Source of the DNA: Podarcis vaucheri | Taxonomy: Eukaryota | DNA length: 64,000 nt | Strand: one strand, 5' to 3' | Assembly (NCBI GenBank): GCA_965113315.1 | Contig: OZ220373.1 | Shown: one piece after another, positions 1-55,440 of the stretch | How positions within the stretch are numbered: position 1 is the first letter of the stretch | Layout of the letters: each line of letters starts with the position of its first letter | Position numbers and translations under genes: made by a program | Notes under the pieces: model-generated | Told to the model about the DNA's origin: nothing | What the model saw: only the letters and a program-made list of their open reading frames with translations | Database searches by the model: none

Positions 1-310
1 GAGTTTGAGGCTTTCCCTTGACTTGGGGGAGGGGTAATCTGAGGACTGCTCCAGAGCACGGACAGTGTCATCCTTTAATATGTGGTTACTCAAAAATGAC
101 TGAGTTTAATGGGGTGTTAATAATAATTATAGTTATTATTTTATTTTGCCCAGCCTTCACCTGAAGGTCCCAGAGCAGGTTACAATTAAAACACGATGTT
201 TTAATTGGGGGGGGGGGAGAGAGAGGCTGGTTCCCAACAATCGTGTACATGATCTTAATTTTCACAAGTCAGGTTAAAGAGGTCCAAAATAAAGCTGCAT
301 ACTCACTATA

Positions 311-527
311 CAGTGGTACCTTGGATTACATGCGCTTCGGGTTACAGACTCCGCTAACCCAGAAATAGTACCTGGGTTAAGAACTTTGCTTCAGGATGAG
401 AACAGAAATCGTGCTCTGGCGGCAGTGGGAGGCCCCATTAGCTAAAATGGTGCTTCAGGTTAAGAACAGTTTCAGGTTAAGAATGGACTTCCAGAACAAA
501 TTAAGTTCTTAACCCAAGGTACCACTG
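311..527. mobile_element. Tc1/mariner (Tigger/pogo-like) MITE, main family
   Basis: TIR CAGTGGTACC(T)...GGTACCACTG, TA on both sides. Confidence 0.85.
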
Positions 528-673
528 TATATTTAAAACACCCGCTCCAAGAACCTTGGGAATTGTAGTTCACTCCTCACAGAACTATACTTCCCGGTAA
601 CTTTAACAAATTTGCAGCAACAGGTCCCAATAAATATATACTATGCATATTTATAACTCAGAGCAACACTTTA

Positions 674-2878: not shown

Positions 2879-3257
2879 CTTAACAAAAGTATTTAATAAC
2901 TGAGGGGGGTGGGAGCGTTCTTAATTTAAGAGCACGAGAAGAGTTTGCTGGAGCCGACAAGTGAGCTGCCTCGTTCTGGATCTGGTTCTCGCAGTGGCCA
3001 ACCAGATGCCCGTGGTTAATCCCAAAAGCAGAGTCTGAGCATAACAGCAGTCTCCCCGCCTGTGATGCCCAGCCACTGGTATTCCAAAGCATTACTGCCT
3101 CTAGCAATGTGGTAAATCACAGTCATCAGCTTTAGCAGCCAACGACAGTCTCATCCTGCACAAATTTGTCTAATCCTCTTTGAAAGCCATCCTCATTCGT
3201 GGCCGTCTCCTGTGGAAGTGAGTTCCAGAGTTTAACACTGCAGGATGAAGACCTGTA

Positions 3258-3483
3258 CAGTGGTACCTCTGCTTACAAACGCTTCAGGTTACACACTCTG
3301 CTAACCCAGAAGTAGTACCTCAAGTTAAGAACTTTGCTTCAGGATGAGAACAGAAATCGTGCGGTGGTGGCACAGCGGCAGTGAGAGGCCCCATTAGCTA
3401 AAGTGGTACCTCAGGTTAAGAACAGTTTCAGGTTAAGAACGGACCTCCAGAATGAATGAAGTTCTTAACCCGAGGTACCACTG
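3258..3483. mobile_element. Main-family MITE
   Basis: TIRs, TA TSD. Confidence 0.85.
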
Positions 3484-3668
3484 TAAAGTGCCCAGATGTC
3501 CCCCCCTTCCCCCCCTTTTAAGTAAAAGCTGAAAACTTTGCGATGGTGAAGTTTCGTCTTGAGAAATGGTAGCTCCTGAATAGATAGAAGTATTTTTAAG
3601 GCTGCCTTTCGTGGCATAAAACCCTCACAAAGCAGCTCACGAGACGTCAAAATATAAAACGATTGTGC

Positions 3669-3707
<39 letters not shown>

Positions 3708-3756
3708 GGTTTTGGTGTCTTCGGGTGTCTTCCCGTGTAAGAATCGGGGTGTCTGT

Positions 3757-3794
3757 GCGACGTTTCGACGAGGTCTCACTCGTCATCTTCAGGC
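3757..3794 (-). ncRNA. Minimal hammerhead ribozyme motif, copy 1
   Basis: GC-CUGAAGA-U-GACGAG(UGAGAC)CUCGUC-GAAA-CGUC-GC. Confidence 0.65.
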
Positions 3795-3987
3795 TGGTGC
3801 TTTCGGCTTCTTGTTACTGGAAACGTCGCACAGACACCCCGATTCTTACACGGGAAGACACCCGAAGACACCAAAACCTGCATTCCTGTACCCGTGAAAA
3901 TCTACGAAAGCATATATATATATATATATATATATGCAGGTTTTGGTGTCTTCGGGTGTCTTCCCGTGTAAGAGTCGGGGTGTCTGT

Positions 3988-4025
3988 GCGACGTTTCGAC
4001 GAGGTCTCACTCGTCATCTTCAGGC
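3988..4025 (-). ncRNA. Minimal hammerhead ribozyme motif, copy 2
   Basis: Identical core, 231 nt from copy 1. Confidence 0.65.
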
Positions 4026-5029
4026 TGGTGCTTTCGGCTTCTTGTTACTGGAACAGAGCAGAGTCTGGTGTTTGAGTTCCTATAAATACTGTTGAGGGGT
4101 GTGGTGTATAGCCTCCAACGTTCTGGGCAGAGAGGAAGTTCCTAGATTAGTGTGCCTTTTCTTCTTTTGTTCCTTAATTACTTGAGGGATATCTTGGGTG
4201 ATTTCATGAGTGATATTCTGAATACCACTGGGTGGGTCATTAAGTGTAGATTAGTTGCTAAAGCTTTCGTGTCTTGACCTCTTGAGCTTGTGAAGAGTTT
4301 TTCTGAGAAGATGGCTGTGCTGCATTTAGTTGTGCTCTGGCTTGGCTTCGTGTATAGGGGCGAGCTGTGGTTTTGTGCCTTGTGCCAGCCAGATCTGTGT
4401 AGGGATTTTCTCATATATATATATATGAGAAAAAGCAGCTCACGAGACATCAAAATATAAAACGATTGTGCGCATATATATATACATATGAGAAAACAAC
4501 TGTTCAAAGCACCACAAGCTGACAGCAGATAAAATGATTAAAGTCTGTATTTGCAAGTACCGGTAAACCACCCACCACTGGAACATGGAAATTACAGGAG
4601 CATTTCTTATGCAAAGTTTGCAACGAGAGGCATTGCAATCCACAACGTGTCAGATGCTGTTGGCACAGAATGAAGACTCCACCTGTTCTCCCGGTTTGCC
4701 TGGCCTGACAAGAGTTACTAAAAATACGGCTGAACAATGAGGAAGGTCGGATAGGACAATCGCCTAGTTTGTTTCCAGGTTATGACAGTAAGAATGCATA
4801 CAAGAGGAAGTCCCAAGCGCACAAACACACCCTCTCTGTTGCCGATAACTCAACCTCAGGAGGAATGCTTCCAAAGAGGGGTCAGCAACTAGAAGCCCTC
4901 AAGACTAATCCGTCCTCCCACAAGGGATGGGCACTTCACTTTACCACATTGCCAGCCCAGAAGCCAAAGAGGGTTCTGTAGTAAGTGCTGTCCTTTTCCA
5001 TCAGAAGTTGTCTGCAGAAAGGTGAAGTA

Positions 5030-5271
5030 CAGTGGTACCTCGGGTTAAGTACTTAATTCGTTCCAGAGGTCCGTTCTTAACCTGAAACTGTTCTTAACCT
5101 GAAGCACCACTTTAGCTAATGCGGCCTCCCACTGCCGTCGCGCCACCAGAGCACGATTTCTGTTCTCATCCTGAAGCAAAGTTCTTAACCCGAGGTACTA
5201 TTTCTGGGTTAGCGGAGTCTGTAACCTGAAGCGTCTGTAACCTGAAGCGTATGTAACCCGAGGTACCACTG
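5030..5271. mobile_element. Main-family MITE
   Basis: Perfect TIR CAGTGGTACCTCGGGTTA, TA TSD. Confidence 0.9.
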
Positions 5272-5910
5272 TAAAAGGGTGTTAAGGCAAGTTCCCATGA
5301 CCCACCACACAGCTACCCCCAGGTAATCTTGTTCCTGATCAGGCCACTAATATTTTGCTAGCTAAGGGCAGGGAGGCAGATTTCACATGGCTGTAAGCGA
5401 ATAAGGGGTTTGGTGGCAAACAGCCTGCAAGCTGTGCTTTACTCCTACTTCGTGTGTGTATGCATGTGTGAACAGGGGGCAAATAAAGGTCAGAAAGCTG
5501 CTTGCATACCAGTGTCTAAGAGACTGAACTATGAGTCAGGATGTTCCTTGCTGCAAAAGGCCCGATCCTACCCTAAACCAGCGACAGTCTGAAAGCACCC
5601 CTAGACAATCACAACAGGCTAACATGAAGCTAATTTATGAAGACACAGACTGCTGGAATGCTCTGGCCGGCAGCATCTCACAGCAGCCCAGGTTGGATAT
5701 TTAACATTATGAGATGGCAGAATGGACTGCACAAATCAAACTGCAAGGGAAGAGACCATTTTTATTGGTCCCTTGAGTAAAAACAACTAGAAGCAGAAAA
5801 CGAGCCATTTGGGAGAAGCAATTTGCTCTCCCTGCTGTCTCTACACTATTTTATCTTTTACAGCATTTGTAAATTTGATCCGCAACTGCATCGGAACTGT
5901 TCATTCTACC

Positions 5911-8825: not shown

Positions 8826-9047
8826 TAGTGGTACCTTGGTTTAAGAACAGTCCGGTTTAAGAATGATTTGGTTTACAAATTCTGCAAAACCGGAAAGTGT
8901 CCTGGTTTGAGAACTTTACCTTGGTATAAGAACGGAATCAGAACGGTAGAAGGGCACCGGCGGCGGGAGGCCTCATTAGTGAAAGCGCACCTCGGTTTAA
9001 GAACGGACTTCTGGAACAGATTAAGTTTGTAAACCGAGGTACCACTG
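8826..9047. mobile_element. Related MITE (GTGGTACCTYGGTTTA subfamily)
   Basis: TIR-like ends, TA. Confidence 0.75.
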
Positions 9048-9553
9048 TACAATGAAATGTTTTATTTGGCCCCGTGCGGGGAGGGGGATACCTACCCCCT
9101 CTTCCAACAAGATCCAAGGGTTAGTGGACGACGCTTTGGGTCAATCACATATCTGCGATCTGAACCCTCAGTGTTGGCTTAAAATATATTACAATGTATG
9201 AAGTCAGGGGTTTCAAAAAGGGAGCTGGAAATGTGTGCTCTGGTTGTGCAAGCCACAGCACAGGTGAACAAGATGGAGCACTGGCCTTCCGTCACATACG
9301 CGACTTCTGATGGAAGAGGGAAAAGCCATGGGCTAGGAAGGAAACTTTGACTGCTGGGAAATGGAATGTACGTGTCAGGTTTCTTTGCAGGGTGGATGAA
9401 CTCTGGGGCTTTTCCATGTGTGACTCCTCTAATCTTGTGCCTCTTGATCATCTCCAAAGTTGCTCAAACTGGAGACCTTAAAGCCATTATTTGACTCTCA
9501 CATACCCAATACACCGTGCACACATGCTGAGAGGTATGGATTTAATCTCTAGG

Positions 9554-9850: not shown

Positions 9851-9874
9851 CTCTAAGGCCTCATTTGCACATTA

Positions 9875-10083
9875 CAGTAGTACCTCGGGTTAAGTACTTA
9901 ATTTGTTCCGGAGGTCCGTTCTTAACCTGAAGCACCACTTTAGCTAATGGGGCCTCCTGCTGCTGCCACGCCACTGGAGCACGATTTCTGTTCTCATCCT
10001 GAAGCAAAGTTCTTAACCCGAGGTAATATTTCTGGGTTAGCGGAGTCTGAAACCTGAAGCGTCTGTAACCTGAGGTACCACTG
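9875..10083. mobile_element. Main-family MITE
   Basis: TIRs, TA TSD. Confidence 0.85.
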
Positions 10084-11804
10084 TACTGGCAGAGGGCTGT
10101 TGCATGGGAGATTCAAAACTCTTCTGGTCACGTTGTTGGCGAGTAGGGGAGACTGCTGTCTTAGAACAAGTGTGGGGAACCTGTGGCCCTAGATACATGG
10201 GTGAACTGCAATTTCCATTATCCTATGCTGACTGAGGTTGATGGGAGTTGGGGGTACAGCAACACCAGGATGCAAAAGGTTGCCCATCACTGACTTATGA
10301 GTTCCCATAGCAGCACATTCCCAGAAAGGCAGGGAGGCTAAGCAAGAAGATCTAGAGTGAGCATGGCAATCATTTATGGTCAGGAAACTCACAGGTCCAG
10401 AGTCATGACCTTCCCATTGCCTAGTGCTCTCCAGTTTTGAACTTTGTAATTCCCACCATTCCTGACCATTGGCTACAGTACCTAGGATTGATGGGAGTTG
10501 TAGCCCAAAATACCTAGAATGCATCTGGTTGGGTAAAGTCAAAATAGGAAAAAGGTTGAATTGCGGGGTGTTAAGGAATAGGAAAGGCTAGAAAGAGGTG
10601 GTGAAGGAGGAAACAAGTTCTGAGGGAGTATATTATCTAAGTTCTAGGAAAGGGCTGGGTGCTATGAACTACAAGGCAGTGGAGAAGGACAGCAGCTTGG
10701 GAAGCTGGGCAGTTGGTTTCAAGGAGTCAAATGAGCACAGCAAAAGCAGCAGGCATGTTCATGTAACACAATGCTTTCATGTATTTTATTGCACAGCGCC
10801 CTAGGGTTTATTTTCTGTACATGTGCTGCCCTCTACTGGTCCATACATTTAATGTACTGGTTCTGCTGGCTAGGGGTGATGGAAATTGTAGTCCAAAACA
10901 GCTGGAGGCCAAAGTTTGTGAAACTCTGTTCCAGAGTCAAAGGAAAAGCACCTCCCAGTCAAACAAGCCGTGTAATCCTAAATGTGCAAACTGGAGAACG
11001 ACGTCTCTCCCCCACCCTCCAGCTAAGGGCAGTTTTAGGTGCTTGAAAACATGCCAGAAAGTGTTGGATGTGATGTCTCATTGAGGGATGAAGTTAGAAG
11101 CAAAGTTTCAAGGTGCAGTAGATGCCACCAACCTGTTTGCACATAGGCCTGAATACACACATAGGAAAAAATATAGCTGTGTTGAGATGTTTGTGCACCT
11201 ATGTGTTTTAGAGAAGTAGCTTGTGTTTCTTTCCAATACTTCCTCCCCCCCTACAAGGCCAAAACATTTCTAAAAGGGGTGAGACTAGTTTTCTGGCAAT
11301 GTGTCGGCAGGCAATGTGCTTCCTGGAGGCTGATGTGCCACCTAAGATGGTTCCTTCATGAATGGACTGTCTCTGATTAGTGGTGTGGACAATGAAATGA
11401 AGAAAAGGCTGTTCAAAACTTGTGGTTTTGGCCACCTGAGTAAACCCCTTTTAGAACAGGGCAGGGCTACAGTTTGGCCTGTAGAAGCAGCTTGTACAAT
11501 GGATTAAAACTCTGCTGCCCATTTTGAAGCTACCCAAACCCACCTTCCCATCCTACTATTCCAACCATCTAACCCCCCTCAGATCTTTAGCACTAATTTT
11601 ACATGTGTAGCAAAACCACATTATCAACCCCAGGTTAGAAAGTCTGAGCAGTACGGCAAAGAGGCAAAGCAACTCTCCCACATGTGTGTTTAAGGGCAAA
11701 CAGCCTTTAAAAGAAAGCTTTTGTTCTTTAATTGATAGTGTGCAATGTTTGCACTGAGTCTTAAAAGTATTACCCTAACGAAAAATCAGTATGGTTTGCA
11801 AGAT

Positions 11805-11935
11805 TTTATTTGCCATGTACACACCTATGTCGGTTGCCAGCAGGTCACTATCGCAGCGAGCACTATGGCGACAAGACTTCTTTACATGGAACTTTTAATG
11901 AGATCTGTACATTCAACTCACACATACCTTTTATT
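11805..11935 (-). terminator. ATP5F1A polyadenylation signal candidates (AATAAA at 11930-11935 and 11805-11810)
   Basis: tttatt on the + strand about 85 and 210 nt past the stop codon. Confidence 0.6.
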
Positions 11936-12018
11936 AAGCCTCTGGTAAAAAAATGGAACCAGAGTGCTACCACCGTTCAGTGACAAAATTTGCCTTGTAT
12001 AGAGAACTGTCAAAGAGT

Positions 12019-20710
<8,692 letters not shown>

Positions 20711-21052: not shown

Positions 21053-21189
21053 NNNNNNNNNNNNNNNNNNNNNNNNNNNNNNNNNNNNNNNNNNNNNNNN
21101 NNNNNNNNNNNNNNNNNNNNNNNNNNNNNNNNNNNNNNNNNNNNNNNNNNNNNNNNNNNNNNNNNNNNNNNNNNNNNNNNNNNNNNNNN
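21053..21189. other. Assembly gap (N run)
   Basis: Ns. Confidence 1.
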
Positions 21190-33200: not shown

Positions 33201-33855
33201 CCAGCCATTCCGGGCGTCTCCTATTCCCATTTCATCTAATTTCTTCTGCCTGTCCTCCACCCCTCCTGCAATTTCAATACAGATTAAGACGGGGGATTTT
33301 GGCCACTTAGATATTGCTAGACTACATTTCTCACCAGCCCTGATAAGAAACTCTGAACCAAACTCTTCAGTCCATTCTTCCCAAAATATGGAAATTAAGT
33401 GTGTAGATAAAAAAGGTAAAGGACCCCTGACAGTTCAGTCCAGTCATGAACGACTCTGGGGTTGTGGCGCTCATCTCGCTTTACTGGCCCAGGGAGCGGA
33501 CGTTTGTCCGCAGACAGTTTTTCCGGGTCATGTGGCCAGCATGACTAAGCCGCTTCTGGCGAACCAGAGCAGCACACGGAAACGCCGTTTACCTTCCTGC
33601 CAGAGCAGTACCTATTTATCTACTTGCACTTTGACGTGCTTTTGAACTGCTAGGTTGGCAGGAGCAGGGACTGAGCAATGGGAGCTTATCCCGTCGCGGG
33701 GATTCGAACCACCAACCTTCTGATCGGCAAGCCCTAGGCTCAGTAGTTTAGACCTGCGTCTCATGTGTAGATAGGCATGCATATTTTGCTGATGGCTTTG
33801 AAGTGTCGTTTATTGCAGATCGTGAGGCTAAAAAGCACCCACCCAAACCCTGCAT

Positions 33856-33906
<51 letters not shown>

Positions 33907-36565
33907 TTTCTGGGGGGAGAAAGACAGAGTCACCGTGTGAATCGTTTGTTTTGTGTTTCCATCCACAGAATCTAGCGGAATTAAAGAAGCAGGCGGTACC
34001 TTTGAAGAAGAAACTGGAATCGTATCTGGACCTGACCCCTGTAATCTCCCGTACCCTGCTTCTCTTAGAACTGTAGAATCCTAGCATTGTAGCTCAACTT
34101 CCAGCAGAGTTCCCCAATATGGTGCCAATTGACAAGTCTGCTGGCTGCTGCGGCCCCAAATGCCAGATTGCCCAAGGGCTAGTTTAAAATATTGGCATGT
34201 ATCCCTTGGCTCAGTGTGCTTTTGGAAGTTTGGCTTGACATGAGGGTTATGGGTTAGCAGACATGTGAAAGGAGCTTAAAACATGATTGCGGAGCTTTCT
34301 TTGCTGCCAAGGCTATAGAATTGCTATTATTTCTACAGCACTTGCACATACCGCATTTTTCACTCTATAGGACGCACCGGACCATGGGGGGGGGAGAACG
34401 GGGGGGAATTCTCCCCCTCTCTGCTCAGCGCCCCTTCAGCGAAGCGGCAGGAGAAACGGAGCCCCTTCCATTTCTCATCCCGCTTTGCTGAAGGGGCGCT
34501 GCGCAGAGGGGGAAAACTGTGCAGCGCCTCTCCAGCGAAGCGAAGCCTGGAGAGCAAGAGGGATCGGTGTGCACTGACCCTTCTCGCTCTCCAGGCTTCA
34601 GGTGGCTATCCGCAAGCCTTCGGAGCGCAGCGGGAACTACTGCTGTGCTCCGAAGGCTTGCGGGTAGCGGCCTGAAGCCCCCGGCGTGCAGCGGGGGTTC
34701 CCGCTGCGCTCCGGGGGCTTCAGGTGGCTTCAGCGAAAGCAACGCGAAGCCTCCGGAGCACGGGGGGAGCACTCCCTCTGTGCTTCAGAGGCTTCGCGTT
34801 GCTATCGCTGAAGCCAAGCAGCCTGCATTCGCTCCATAAGACGCACACACATTTCCCCTTAATTTTTGAAGGGGAAAAAGTGCGTCTTATAGAGCGAAAA
34901 ATATGGTGTATGCACGCTATTATTCCTGTTTTTAAATAAATAAATGTCCGCAAATGTTGCTCCAGTTAACAGTTGCGGCCATTCTGGTGGTCAGTTGCAG
35001 ACATAAGTGGCAAGAAGGAAGAGGGCTAGGGTTGTTTGAGGGGTCAAGAAACCTTCAGATTGCTGCTGGACACTGAAGTGTCTTTGTTCCAAACTCACTC
35101 TTCTTCATTGCCTATCCGTCTACATTTCATGGAATGATTTTTGGTGGCACCGGAGTGTGTGCTGAACAAATGTACTTTAAAAACTCTCTTTTTAAAGTTT
35201 TTTTTGGGCAGCAATACCTCCATAGACTTTTTGCTTGATTTCAAAAATTCAGACGGGAGCGTGAAAAAACCCCTACATCTGCCTAAATGTCTTTCTACTG
35301 CTCTTTTCAGAGTCCTTCTCTCGCACGAGTGAAGATTGAAGAAGCAAAGAGGGAGCTGGTAGGTGCTTTTGTTGGTATTAATATGTTCTCTTAGTTGTAC
35401 CGGTGGACAAGCTGATCTTCTGGGCTATTTTGGTGCATTTTTCTTGTGCGGGGATATTTTGGAGGGGTGGAGAAACTGGGTAGGGTGGGCCGGACCTCTT
35501 CTGTCCTAAAGGCAGCATGAGAAATTGACACCTCCCTACATAAGCTCAAGCCTAGGGGTCAAGTCCACTGTCCCTCAGACCTTGTGGGGGGCCAGACTAT
35601 ATTTTGAAAAAAAGTGAATGAATTCCTATGCCCCACAAATAACCCAGAGATGCATTTTAAATAAAAGCATACATTCTACTCATGGAAAAACACCAGGCAG
35701 GCCCCACAAATAACCCAGAGGTGCATTTTCAATAAAAGGACACATTCTACTCATGTAAAGACATGCTGATTCCCAAACAGTCCGTGGGCCAGATTTAGAA
35801 GGCAATTGGGTTGGATCCGGCCGCCGGGCCTTAGTTTGCCTACCCCTGCTCAAGCCATTGCCCATCTCTGCCTTCCCCTAAAGTGCTTTGTGCTGATCTC
35901 TGCACATCAAGCAATGGAGAGAGAGGTTCAAGTGCAAATCTAAGCCTGTCAACCATTCCTCCTTTTCACATTTACTTGTTAAATTTATAACCCACCTTTT
36001 TCTCCAAGAAGCTCAAGGTGGCGTACATGGTTCTCCCCCTCCTCATTTAATCCCCACAAAAACCCTATAAGGTGTTGTGGACTATATCATCCCTGACCAG
36101 TGGCCATGCTGCGTGGAGATTATAGCTCCACAACATCTAAAATCTTTTCATTCTGACCTATTCTGTTTCCTTCACTACGTTGGCTTGACCGTACTGTCTC
36201 TGTTAAGGGTTTTGAATGTCTTGAGTATTTGTTATCGTATTGTTGGTTGGTGTTTGCTTTGCGTATCATGTTTGCCGCTTTGTGAGAACACGCTCTTAAA
36301 AAGTGGGATATAAATCTGTTGGATTAATGATACCTGTCGTCCCAATTTCCTTTTTGGTCGGTTTCAGCTTGTGGGAAGCATCTTTATGGTACGTTGCCAT
36401 ACCATACCATGTTTGTGTATTGGGGAGGGTGTCTTAACTATCATCCAAATATTGGTGCTGACTTTTCTCTCCCTTTTCTAGGAAGCTCTTGAGGCCGAGG
36501 TTTCAGCAAAGGTGGATATGACAGCACTTTCGGTCCCTTTATCTACCAAACGTCACTTTTCCTAA
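24201..36565 (+). CDS. HAUS1: HAUS augmin-like complex subunit 1, complete 9-exon CDS (293 aa from the first ATG)
   Basis: Exons 24201-24242, 26536-26710, 27668-27803, 29325-29459, 30925-31048, 32702-32767, 33969-34040, 35311-35358, 36482-36565 sum to 882 nt, in frame, GT-AG. Peptides VASWLKKTFGDQSIPPYE, ALETKDTSLASFIPAINDLTS and PLKKKLESYLDLTPSPSLARVKIEEAKREL match HAUS1. Head-to-head with ATP5F1A, as in mammals. Confidence 0.97.
24429..24894 (-). mobile_element. BovB 3' fragment in HAUS1 intron 1
   Basis: Reverse-complement homolog of 23108-23577. Confidence 0.95.
24892..25853. mobile_element. Probable DNA transposon (CAGGGCCGGATTTA-type ends) with a nested MITE
   Basis: gccggattta..gcttagggcccc on the left; gcttaggacgtc..acatccaaccctg on the right. 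Confidence 0.45.
25370..25627. mobile_element. Main-family MITE
   Basis: TIRs, TA TSD, extra internal ~18-bp units. Confidence 0.9.
26036..26392 (-). mobile_element. Sauria SINE
   Basis: Reverse complement of 7754-8103; degenerate TSD GTTTA(A/T)CCTTA. Confidence 0.9.
26536..26710 (+). CDS. HAUS1: HAUS1 exon 2
   Basis: 175 nt, VASWLKKTFG...AVEYESD. Confidence 0.96.
26777..27221. mobile_element. hAT-Charlie-type MITE
   Basis: CAGGGGTCAGCAAACTTTTT end; 8-bp TSD CTTTGGTA/CTTTAGAA. Confidence 0.75.
27229..27280. repeat. (TAG)n(TAA)n microsatellite, the tail of an L2-like end
   Basis: Seen directly. Confidence 0.9.
27668..27803 (+). CDS. HAUS1: HAUS1 exon 3
   Basis: 136 nt, TYLQDLLTESLN...KDTSLA. 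Confidence 0.96.
28425..28684. mobile_element. MITE (CAGTCATAC.../...GGTACCACTG subfamily)
   Basis: TA TSD; abuts the next MITE. Confidence 0.85.
28687..28914. mobile_element. Main-family MITE
   Basis: TIRs; shares the TA at 28685-28686 with the previous element. Confidence 0.88.
29032..29215 (+). mobile_element. tRNA(Ala)-like-head SINE; other copies near 32367-32525, 59545-59712 and 63942-64000
   Basis: gagcatct..tttgcatgca..ag.tccc..gttcaat head and gtgtagacaa.actgagctagatgg tail. Confidence 0.6.
29325..29459 (+). CDS. HAUS1: HAUS1 exon 4
   Basis: 135 nt, FIPAINDLTSEL...LVLEKRLQ. Confidence 0.96.
29772..29918. mobile_element. Truncated MITE (CAGTCGTACCTTGG subfamily)
   Basis: Homologous to 32081-32330. 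Confidence 0.65.
29964..30189. mobile_element. Main-family MITE
   Basis: TIRs, TA TSD. Confidence 0.9.
30925..31048 (+). CDS. HAUS1: HAUS1 exon 5
   Basis: 124 nt, DLKKTEELL...FKFRIKAAE. Confidence 0.96.
31553..31657. mobile_element. Half MITE within an L2-like fragment (about 31400-31760)
   Basis: One TIR only. Confidence 0.7.
31789..32032. mobile_element. MITE (same subfamily as 2468-2719)
   Basis: TIRs, TA TSD. Confidence 0.85.
32081..32330. mobile_element. MITE (CAATCATACC.../...GGTACCACTG) inside an L2-like tail
   Basis: TA TSD. Confidence 0.8.
32702..32767 (+). CDS. HAUS1: HAUS1 exon 6
   Basis: 66 nt, EQLSMCGMDASLTHESLVNLSE. Confidence 0.95.
33410..33762 (-). mobile_element. Sauria SINE
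   Basis: 10-bp TSD TGTGTAGATA. Confidence 0.9.
33855..33908. repeat. (TTTA)n microsatellite upstream of HAUS1 exon 7
   Basis: Seen directly. Confidence 0.95.
33969..34040 (+). CDS. HAUS1: HAUS1 exon 7
   Basis: 72 nt, NLAELKKQAVPLKKKLESYLDLTP. Confidence 0.95.
34351..34906. mobile_element. TcMar-Tc2-like element, CpG-rich
   Basis: CCGCATTTTTCACTCTATAGGACGCAC...GTGCGTCTTATAGAGCGAAAAATATGG. Confidence 0.8.
35311..35358 (+). CDS. HAUS1: HAUS1 exon 8
   Basis: 48 nt, SPSLARVKIEEAKREL. Confidence 0.95.
35553..35848. mobile_element. hAT-Charlie-type MITE
   Basis: Perfect 8-bp TSD CTCAAGCC; AGTTTGCCTACCCCTG end. Confidence 0.88.
36482..36565 (+). CDS. HAUS1: HAUS1 exon 9 coding part
   Basis: EALEAEVSAKVDMTALSVPLSTKRHFS*. 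Confidence 0.93.
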   Translation, partial: EALEAEVSAKVDMTALSVPLSTKRHFS

Positions 36566-38307: not shown

Positions 38308-38577
38308 NNNNNNNNNNNNNNNNNNNNNNNNNNNNNNNNNNNNNNNNNNNNNNNNNNNNNNNNNNNNNNNNNNNNNNNNNNNNNNNNNNNNNNNNNNNNN
38401 NNNNNNNNNNNNNNNNNNNNNNNNNNNNNNNNNNNNNNNNNNNNNNNNNNNNNNNNNNNNNNNNNNNNNNNNNNNNNNNNNNNNNNNNNNNNNNNNNNNN
38501 NNNNNNNNNNNNNNNNNNNNNNNNNNNNNNNNNNNNNNNNNNNNNNNNNNNNNNNNNNNNNNNNNNNNNNNNNNNNN
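38308..38577. other. Assembly gap (N run)
   Basis: Ns. Confidence 1.
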
Positions 38578-54700: not shown

Positions 54701-55440
54701 CCGTATTTTTCACCCTATAGGACGCACCGGCCCATAGGACGCACCTAGTTTTTTGGGGGGGAAATCAAGGGAAAATTTTTATTTCCCCCCCAGGTTTGCA
54801 CAGCCATCCACAAGCTAGAAGAGGGAGACGGAGTGCTAGGTCTCCCCCTTCTGCCTTCAGGGACAGCCTCCCTAGCCTCTGCGGGGCAGCGCAACCATCC
54901 CCAAGCTAGAAGAGAGAGACGAGCGCTCCGTCTCCCTTTTCTGCCTTCAGGGACAGCTTGCCCCGCTGTCCCCGGAGTTTGTGGGGCTGGCGGGGGGAGA
55001 AGCAAGCTTGCTTCTCCCCCCCCAAGCCTCCAGATCAGGTCGGGGAATAGCGGGGTGGCGGCGCTCCGCCACCCCACTATCCCCCGAGCTTGTGGGGCTG
55101 GCGGGGGGGGGGAGAAGCAGGCTTGTTTCTCCCCCCCCCGCCAGCCTCCAGATCAGGTCGGGGAATAGCGGGGTGGCGGCGCTGCGCCTCCCCGCTGTCC
55201 CCCAGCTTTTGGGCTGCAGGCTGCTGCCCGCAAGCCTTGCGAGCCCGCGGGACATCCCACCGGGCTTGCAAGACTTGCGGATAGCTTCCTGAAGCCTGGA
55301 GAGCGAGAGGGGTCATGCGCACCGACCCCTCTCGCTCTCCAGGCTTCAGCGAAAGCCTGCATTCGCCCCATAGGACGCACACACATTTCCCCTTCATTTT
55401 TGGAGGGAAAAAAGTGTGTCCTATAGGGCGTAAAATACGG
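54701..55440. mobile_element. TcMar-Tc2-like element with internal tandem duplications
   Basis: CCGTATTTT...AAAATACGG, TA TSD; ~115-bp unit repeated (about 54969-55198) and ~60-bp unit repeated (about 54808 and 54899). Confidence 0.85.

What the first reader, a model, noticed from the sequence alone, without database searches (positions are those of the whole stretch)
3757..4025. Two tandem minimal hammerhead ribozyme motifs that could act as a dimer
Seen: the - strand carries two identical copies, 231 nt apart, of GC-CUGAAGA-U-GACGAG(UGAGAC)CUCGUC-GAAA-CGUC-GC. That is the CUGANGA and GAAA cores, a perfect 6-bp helix II and a GUC cleavage triplet. Helix III is reduced to the palindromic ACGU and helix I is only about 2 bp. 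Established: Penelope-like retroelements carry such minimal type I hammerheads in their pseudo-LTRs, and a loopless helix III points to cleavage as a dimer. Inference: this locus supplies both partners in cis on one transcript running in the same direction as ATP5F1A, so it could self-cleave read-through or upstream transcripts.
Basis: partly seen in the sequence, partly recalled or inferred. Interest (0 to 1): 0.7.

Follow-up and report, generated by a model that had tools for sequence, protein, structure and literature searches.

The report
Nested Penelope stubs with locked hammerheads
The two identical hammerhead ribozyme motifs are real, but they are leftovers of a very abundant jumping gene that likely landed twice in one TA repeat, and a reversed fragment between them is predicted to block the paired self-cutting that was proposed, so this locus is ordinary.

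Summary
Observation confirmed: two identical minimal type I hammerheads on the - strand, 231 nt apart. They are pLTR ends of a young Penelope/Poseidon retroelement. The 37-nt motif has 11,012 exact copies, and full copies encode a 906-aa RT plus GIY-YIG protein whose ATG lies inside the hammerhead. The pair is likely two separate 5'-truncated insertions in one (TA)n tract, inside a 58-nt target-site duplication; one other sample carries the empty site. It is predicted to pair the GAAACGUC half of one hammerhead in a 64-bp duplex (P about 1.0); the cis dimer costs 41.8 kcal/mol, against 15-23 for unblocked pairs. Close same-strand pairs are common (14 of the first 100 motifs), and this one lies 7.9 kb past the first ATP5F1A polyA signal. 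Cis cleavage of host RNA is unlikely. By-product: the two arms of inverted insertions share rare variants, neighbours across TA tracts do not, hinting at double priming on one template. The scan noted this family before at three other places in this genome.

The parts
3988..4025 (-). Minimal type I hammerhead, copy 1 (C3 at 4023; element ATG at 4017; predicted cut after 3990)
3757..3794 (-). Minimal type I hammerhead, copy 2 (C3 at 3792; predicted cut after 3759)
3935..4407 (-). Insertion B: 473-nt 5'-truncated end of the Penelope/Poseidon element, ending at site 1 (+83 from the ATG), no tail
   Evidence: 1 mismatch in 473 to full-length copy L033; pieces
3912..3935 (.). (TA)n tract, 24 nt, between the 3' ends of B and of the inverted arm of A
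   Evidence: sequence
3820..3912 (+). Unit A, inverted arm: element +21 to +113 (from G12 of the hammerhead to the end of the tail, site 2); 3820-3883 is antisense to the 3' half of both hammerheads
   Evidence: 0 mismatches to copy 2 and 1 to copy 1
3703..3822 (-). Unit A, sense arm: element -35 to +84, carries hammerhead copy 2, joined to the inverted arm over a 3-nt overlap (3820-3822)
   Evidence: differs from B only at 3743 versus 3974
3670..3704 (.). (TA)n tract, 35 nt, at the 3' end of unit A
3629..3686 (.). Target-site duplication, copy 1 (58 nt)
   Evidence: D12; single in the empty allele of run X4
4432..4489 (.). Target-site duplication, copy 2 (58 nt, 3 mismatches to copy 1)
4406..4433 (.). 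28-nt palindromic filler at the 5' junction of B, resembling flank 4476-4496; likely templated repair
   Evidence: origin inferred
11930..12021 (-). Context: ATP5F1A stop codon (last base 12019) and first AATAAA (11935), 7.9 kb upstream of copy 1

Best explanation
The two hammerheads are passive passengers in 5'-truncated ends of a young Penelope/Poseidon retroelement that likely inserted twice, independently, into one TA microsatellite, and an antisense fragment between them is predicted to keep them from forming a cis double hammerhead. Shown: identity to the family, the ends at +83/84 and +113, the inverted arm, the 58-nt duplication, the empty allele in one other sample. Inferred: the element's endonuclease nicked the (TA)n and reverse transcription began at the internal start sites described for the Anolis element; B went in with the target duplication and a templated filler; unit A went into the same TA tract as a mirror-image pair, both arms copied from one template. 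The order of A and B is not determined. Predicted: any - strand RNA through the locus folds a hairpin of 64 bp or more that buries GAAACGUCGC of one copy, so the other has no cis partner.
For: 11,012 exact motif copies. Full element with pLTR-ORF-pLTR and RVT_1 (E 6.7e-15) plus GIY-YIG (E 0.0011); 7 of 15 listed ATG-motif starts open a 906-aa frame. Genome-wide, 5,348 ends at site 1 and 6,233 at site 2 run into (TA)n, 494 run on into the ORF; site 2 matches the +111-118 start of PAc (PMC11167929). Both arms of A carry a variant found at only 16 places; B lacks it. Rare variants: 13 shared and 11 private within inverted units, 0 shared and 18 private across tracts (Fisher p 1e-4). Empty allele joins 3660 to 4467 in run X4. 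Folding: arm pairs copy 1 or copy 2 with P 0.99-1.0; dimer gap 41.8 kcal/mol, 14.2 with the arm removed in silico, 15-23 for 4 of 10 other non-array pairs and 16-18 in a direct array.
Against: Folding is nearest-neighbour only: it omits Mg2+, tertiary contacts and protein, and even unblocked pairs show a 15-23 kcal/mol gap, so only the excess (about 20-27) is informative. The PAc hammerhead cleaves only with its protein (PMC11167929), which could remodel RNA. In loci not picked for the T variant the sharing test is weak (6 shared and 8 private versus 0 and 9, p 0.048; by pairs p 0.09). 5 of 9 inverted units with the T variant are discordant. The two-event reading at this locus rests on one nucleotide plus the family pattern. 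The empty allele is one contig of one run, 13 and 6 letters different from the window flanks. GIY-YIG scored 19.7 bits, below Pfam's cut-off of 22.6.
Confidence: 0.88

Rival explanations
1. One reading: the two motifs form a cis double hammerhead that cuts ATP5F1A read-through or upstream transcripts.
For: Both cores are intact and identical; both lie on the ATP5F1A strand; dimeric min-HHR constructs showed low cleavage in vitro (PMC4209133); the residual hairpin would hold the two motifs close in the constrained fold.
Against: Dimer needs about 10 bp of a 64-bp duplex unzipped: 41.8 kcal/mol above the free ensemble, helix III probability about 1e-23. The locus is 7.9 kb past the first polyA signal and about 4.5 kb before the next gene's ATG. 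Empty in run X4. No RNA ends at the cut site were found for PAc in vivo (PMC11167929).
Confidence: 0.04
2. One hammerhead stays free and is cut in trans, with a partner from another element transcript or with help from the element's protein.
For: In each fold one copy is outside the long duplex; partners are abundant in the genome; PAc cleavage is protein-assisted (PMC11167929).
Against: The free copy 1 is predicted to misfold at equilibrium (stem II P 0.17). Needs transcription of an intergenic site and co-expression of the element. It would be a family property, not special to this locus.
Confidence: 0.1
3. A and B came from one complex insertion event rather than two.
For: One target-site duplication brackets both; partial tandems with an inverted copy are the described PLE insertion shape (PMC8557442).
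Against: A TA tract separates them; B lacks the variant both A arms share; neighbours across tracts shared 0 of 18 rare variants.
Confidence: 0.2
4. The tandem copy is an assembly artefact.
For: No listed contig spans both copies, and the junction test was inconclusive.
Against: The copies differ at one base, are separated by an inversion, and sit in a duplication that is single in the empty allele. A contig of run X1 covers 4378-4900 with 0 differences, 30 letters into the element, one short of the tool's bridging rule. The same junction type recurs with other flanks on C27.
Confidence: 0.02

Closest known systems
PAc (Poseidon_Ac) of Anolis carolinensis, Penelope/Poseidon clade (Frangieh et al. 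2024, PMC11167929)
   Same: One ORF with RT and C-terminal GIY-YIG; ATG at the start of hammerhead stem II; AT-rich targets; two 3' ends bounding a tail of about 30 nt, the outer one at +113 to +118 here and +111-118 there; tandem full-length arrays.
   Different: Another family in another genome; no sequence comparison with PAc was possible (its sequence file could not be read). Predicted cut is 25 nt after the start codon here, 26 there. The window holds only truncated ends.
Minimal hammerheads (min-HHR) of metazoan Penelope-like elements (Cervera and De la Pena 2014, PMC4209133)
   Same: Type I, no loop 3, palindromic 15.2-16.2 pair, extra base between 9 and 10.1, G10.1-C11.1, long helix II; thousands of copies per genome, often 100-700 nt apart on opposite strands.
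   Different: Helix I is 2 bp, as in the D. virilis variant, not 4-5 bp; copies are nearly invariant (11,012 exact of 11,588 descriptor matches), as for the recent D. virilis invasion.
Non-LTR retrozymes (Li et al. 2026, bioRxiv 10.64898/2026.07.22.740005)
   Same: Two consecutive same-strand type I hammerheads a few hundred nt apart, derived from a PLE pLTR, non-coding.
   Different: The window is not a head-to-tail repeat: the shared unit is 142 nt of a 231-nt spacing, the rest is an inversion, and Tandem Repeats Finder reports no such array. A true array of this family exists elsewhere (L065, 17 x 294 nt).

Membership tests
Penelope-like element, EN+ | Single ORF with RT and C-terminal GIY-YIG endonuclease in full copies | tested here: met
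   L033 906 aa: RVT_1 E 6.7e-15; GIY-YIG E 0.0011 at 705-744, below the curated cut-off but with GVY..C..C..YIG and two later His visible
Penelope-like element, EN+ | pLTR formed by partial tandem; head-to-tail arrays | tested here: met
   420-nt direct repeat before the ORF in L033; 2961-nt period arrays on C1
Penelope-like element, EN+ | Inverted 5'-truncated copies and a 30-40 nt tail at one end | tested here: met
   Unit A; 38 adjacent inverted units within 5 kb among the first 100 motifs; two end classes 30 nt apart
Penelope/Poseidon clade (versus Neptune, Nematis) | No extra CX2-5CxxC linker motif between RT and EN (criterion from PMC8557442) | tested here: met
   Only one Cys between the RT thumb region and the GVY motif, by inspection
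Penelope/Poseidon clade (versus Neptune, Nematis) | RT groups with Poseidon in a phylogeny | not tested
   No reference PLE proteins were fetched; PDB search gave only distant bacterial RTs
Minimal hammerhead of PLEs | CUGANGA, extra base, G10.1-C11.1 stem II, GAAA, palindromic loopless helix III, NUH | tested here: met
   stem II P 0.96-0.99 as a monomer
Minimal hammerhead of PLEs | Covariation in the helices across families | tested here: inconclusive
   Copies are almost invariant; no compensatory change among variants in the fetched loci
Minimal hammerhead of PLEs | Self-cleavage as a dimer or with protein | not testable with these tools
   Needs an in vitro assay
Rfam hammerhead families | Match to an Rfam hammerhead model | tested here: not met
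   No hammerhead family listed at E up to 10
Non-LTR retrozyme | Head-to-tail tandem repeat with a hammerhead in consecutive units | tested here: not met
   Inversion between the motifs; no 231-nt array. Met instead by L065
Non-LTR retrozyme | Dispersed copies of the same unit; circular RNA | tested here: not met
   The A junction occurs at 2 places only, with different flanks and a different variant; circular RNA not testable
Cis double hammerhead | Both ACGU palindromes free to pair with each other | tested here: not met
   Prediction only: one is buried in a 64-bp duplex, P 0.99-1.0

The most novel reading that the evidence does not exclude
The locus records how Penelope elements insert: the enzyme primes twice on one RNA, once from each internal start site and once on each DNA strand, giving mirror-image units whose overlapping arms share template variants, while later insertions stack up in the same TA tract. 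Neither arm of unit A contains the other, so both were copied from a longer template. With about 11,000 near-identical copies and empty alleles in other individuals, this family makes the open question of PLE integration testable from genomes alone.
Probability: 0.55. Interest if true: 0.45.

Novelty: new member of a known kind. Interest (0 to 1): 0.17.

Why it matters
The locus itself matters little: one of probably hundreds of close same-strand pairs (8 pairs within 500 nt among the first 100 of 11,012 motifs) and one of the poorer dimer candidates. It is a warning that tandem hammerheads in PLE debris must be folded with their spacer. The family is more useful: young, with intact ORFs, two exact end classes, polymorphic sites and a retrozyme-like array at a single locus, it offers material for two open questions, how inverted PLE insertions form and what PLE hammerheads do in vivo.

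Tried and rejected
Rfam scans found no hammerhead model; the miRNA hits at 3820-3997 reflect the long hairpin and are all below gathering scores. A DNA search of G000 with 3934-4400 returned nothing because common words are skipped. No RNA holder listed, so expression was not tested. Laying contigs on the A junction at 100% identity listed no piece that clearly spans it; inconclusive. Unit A as a mobile unit of its own: rejected, junction at 2 places only. Pfam FCH search showed no match beside the window among 13 matches, so the name PSTPIP2 for the next gene rests on a short exon and recalled synteny. Covariation could not be assessed. PDB search gave only distant RTs. Lunse et al. 2016 was not held; I saw only a review's passages on it (PMC6765202). 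The PAc sequence file could not be read and its Supplementary Figure 2 gave labels only; these may bear on how close this family is to PAc and on the one-template idea. No homolog search or tree was run for the ORF.

Full report
Observation. A descriptor scan of the whole window found the two motifs on the - strand at 4023-3994 and 3792-3763, each with a 6-bp stem II; the only other hit, at 33370, had a 3-bp stem and no NUH. The 38-nt motifs are identical. Rfam models gave no hammerhead match. The window has two N runs (21053-21189, 38308-38577), far from the finding.

Family. The 37-nt motif occurs 11,012 times exactly in G000, the reversed control 0 times; a looser descriptor gives 11,588 against 73 for its control. 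Locus L033 holds a full element: a 420-nt pLTR, an ORF and a second pLTR, period 2961 nt. [quoted passage not shown] In five loci, 7 of 15 listed starts open the same 906-aa frame; the others are broken, terminal or cut by the locus edge. There is no extra cysteine linker before the endonuclease, which by the criterion in PMC8557442 (passages read) points to the Penelope/Poseidon clade; no tree was built. Element ends fall in two classes: 5,348 end at +83 and 6,233 at +113 to +115, both running into (TA)n, while 494 run on into the ORF. This parallels the Anolis element PAc, where the ORF begins at stem II, reverse transcription starts at two internal sites including +111-118, and AT-rich DNA is cut on both strands (PMC11167929; abstract, main text and part of methods read). 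That the host is a lizard is my inference, also stated in earlier scan notes.

Anatomy. Reading the - strand: 58-nt repeat (4489-4432), palindromic filler (4433-4406), insertion B (4407-3935, 1 mismatch in 473 to L033), (TA)12, an inverted arm (+ 3820-3912, element +21 to +113), a sense arm (3822-3703, -35 to +84), (TA)17, and the second 58-nt repeat (3686-3629). Contigs of run X4, another sample with the same species label, include one 796-nt contig at depth 11.9 that goes from 3660 to 4467; it has 13 and 6 differences from the window flanks. So the 58-nt repeat is single in an empty allele and is a target-site duplication. X4 and X6 also lack or nearly lack the window's letter at 3987, which is the majority in X1 and X3, so the window's subfamily is likely younger than the split from those lineages.

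One event or two. Both arms of unit A carry a variant (3743) that B lacks. It occurs at 16 places in 12 loci. Of 9 inverted units where both arms cover the site, 4 are concordant, including the window, and 5 are discordant; 3 loci had no such partner. A wider test used 123 arms from 44 of the 81 fetched loci plus the window. Within 34 inverted units, rare variants were 13 shared and 11 private; across 25 neighbour pairs outside such units, 0 shared and 18 private; between different loci, 19 shared and 3,947 private. Fisher p is 1e-4 for all, 0.048 without the loci picked for the T variant, and 0.003 and 0.09 counted by pairs. Variants in one unit are not independent, and gene conversion inside palindromes could also give sharing. 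The reading is that A is one event from one template and B another. The A junction recurs once, on C27, with unrelated flanks and the common variant, which fits repeated use of a 3-nt microhomology.

Is the pair special? Among the first 100 of the 11,012 matches (C1, 1.1-13.7 Mb), 14 lie in 8 same-strand pairs within 500 nt, and 8 in 4 pairs within 300 nt. It is not.

Can the dimer form? In the RNA 4060-3815, present first during transcription, the inverted arm pairs G12-C17 of copy 1 with P 0.99-1.0. In 4060-3700 it pairs copy 2 instead, and copy 1 misfolds (stem II P 0.17). The ensemble constrained to the double hammerhead is 41.8 kcal/mol above the free one; with the arm removed in silico the gap is 14.2. 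Longer flanks and 25 C do not change this; helix III probability is about 1e-23. In 17 loci that I picked for having several motifs, 10 other non-array pairs had gaps of 15.1-270.3, 4 of them 23 or less, and 6 distinct pairs in a direct array had 16.4-18.2. The model omits Mg2+, tertiary contacts and protein, so only the excess of about 20-27 kcal/mol counts. Published activity is low anyway: monomers of a min-HHR did not cleave and dimers cleaved weakly (PMC4209133; abstract, results, discussion and part of methods read); the PAc hammerhead cleaved only with protein, was not needed for insertion in vitro, and no RNA-seq ends were found at its cut site. A review states that PLEs tend to insert into or next to existing copies (PMC6765202; passages).

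Context. ATP5F1A exons lie on the - strand, stop at 12019, AATAAA at 11935 and 11810. Copy 1 is 7.9 kb past the first signal. The next - strand gene starts about 700 nt beyond the window's first base (ATG at L049 9298); the name PSTPIP2 is recalled and was not confirmed. A cut here would fall in RNA already severed from the ATP5F1A message (established knowledge of polyadenylation) and upstream of the next gene. No RNA run was listed as holding the stretch, so transcription is untested.

Comparison and novelty. The motif belongs to the known min-HHR class and the element works like PAc. It is not a retrozyme: the preprint's definition needs consecutive tandem units (10.64898/2026.07.22.740005; abstract, introduction, part of methods, discussion and passages read). 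A true candidate is L065, 17 units of 294 nt with a hammerhead in each, whose unit junction occurs only at that locus. Three searches listed no paper, by title or abstract start, on variant sharing between arms of inverted PLE insertions; the library lacks most subscription journals and I could not see the PAc supplements. Earlier scan notes on three other places in this genome reach the same family assignment; they are not independent evidence.

Verdict. Real motif, known kind, ordinary locus; the cis-dimer function is unlikely (about 0.04). Interest 0.17, mostly for the family as material on the insertion mechanism.

Noticed in passing
L065 1595-6598 (G000:C10:113,361,594-113,366,597): Array of 17 units of 294 nt, 99% matches, one hammerhead per unit on the same strand, preceded by an inverted stretch with two more motifs and bounded by TA tracts; unit junction found only here. 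A retrozyme-like array born from this family, and a far better cis-dimer candidate (gap 16-18 kcal/mol).
   Followed up: partly
L066-L069 (G000:C1 about 24.106-24.115 Mb and 127.064-127.076 Mb): Head-to-tail arrays of full-length elements, period 2961 nt, several with intact 906-aa ORFs; likely source loci.
   Followed up: partly
Inverted units in L031-L081: Arms of one inverted unit share rare variants; neighbours across TA tracts do not. Suggests both arms come from one template.
   Followed up: yes
window 3987 and 3756: A subfamily-marking base right after the hammerhead: the window's letter is the majority in runs X1 and X3 but absent or nearly absent in X4 and X6, pointing to a lineage-specific burst.
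   Followed up: partly
L031 6142-6534 and 6909-7381: A related element family about 91% identical to the window's pLTR sits nested among copies of the main family.
   Followed up: no
window 306-537, 667-911, 3252-3493, 5025-5277, 8827-9057, 9856-10089 and elsewhere: An abundant short repeat with inverted ends (end motif at 21 places in the window); looks like a MITE.
   Followed up: no
window 4412-4501: The flank holds a short local duplication and a 28-nt palindrome at the 5' junction of B, resembling templated end-joining.
   Followed up: partly
L049 about 9270-9298, - strand: First coding exon of a gene following ATP5F1A on the same strand, recalled as PSTPIP2; not confirmed.
   Followed up: partly
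window 54961-55213 and 35630-35763: GC-rich 118-nt tandem repeat (2.2 copies) and a 71-nt tandem repeat (1.9 copies).
   Followed up: no
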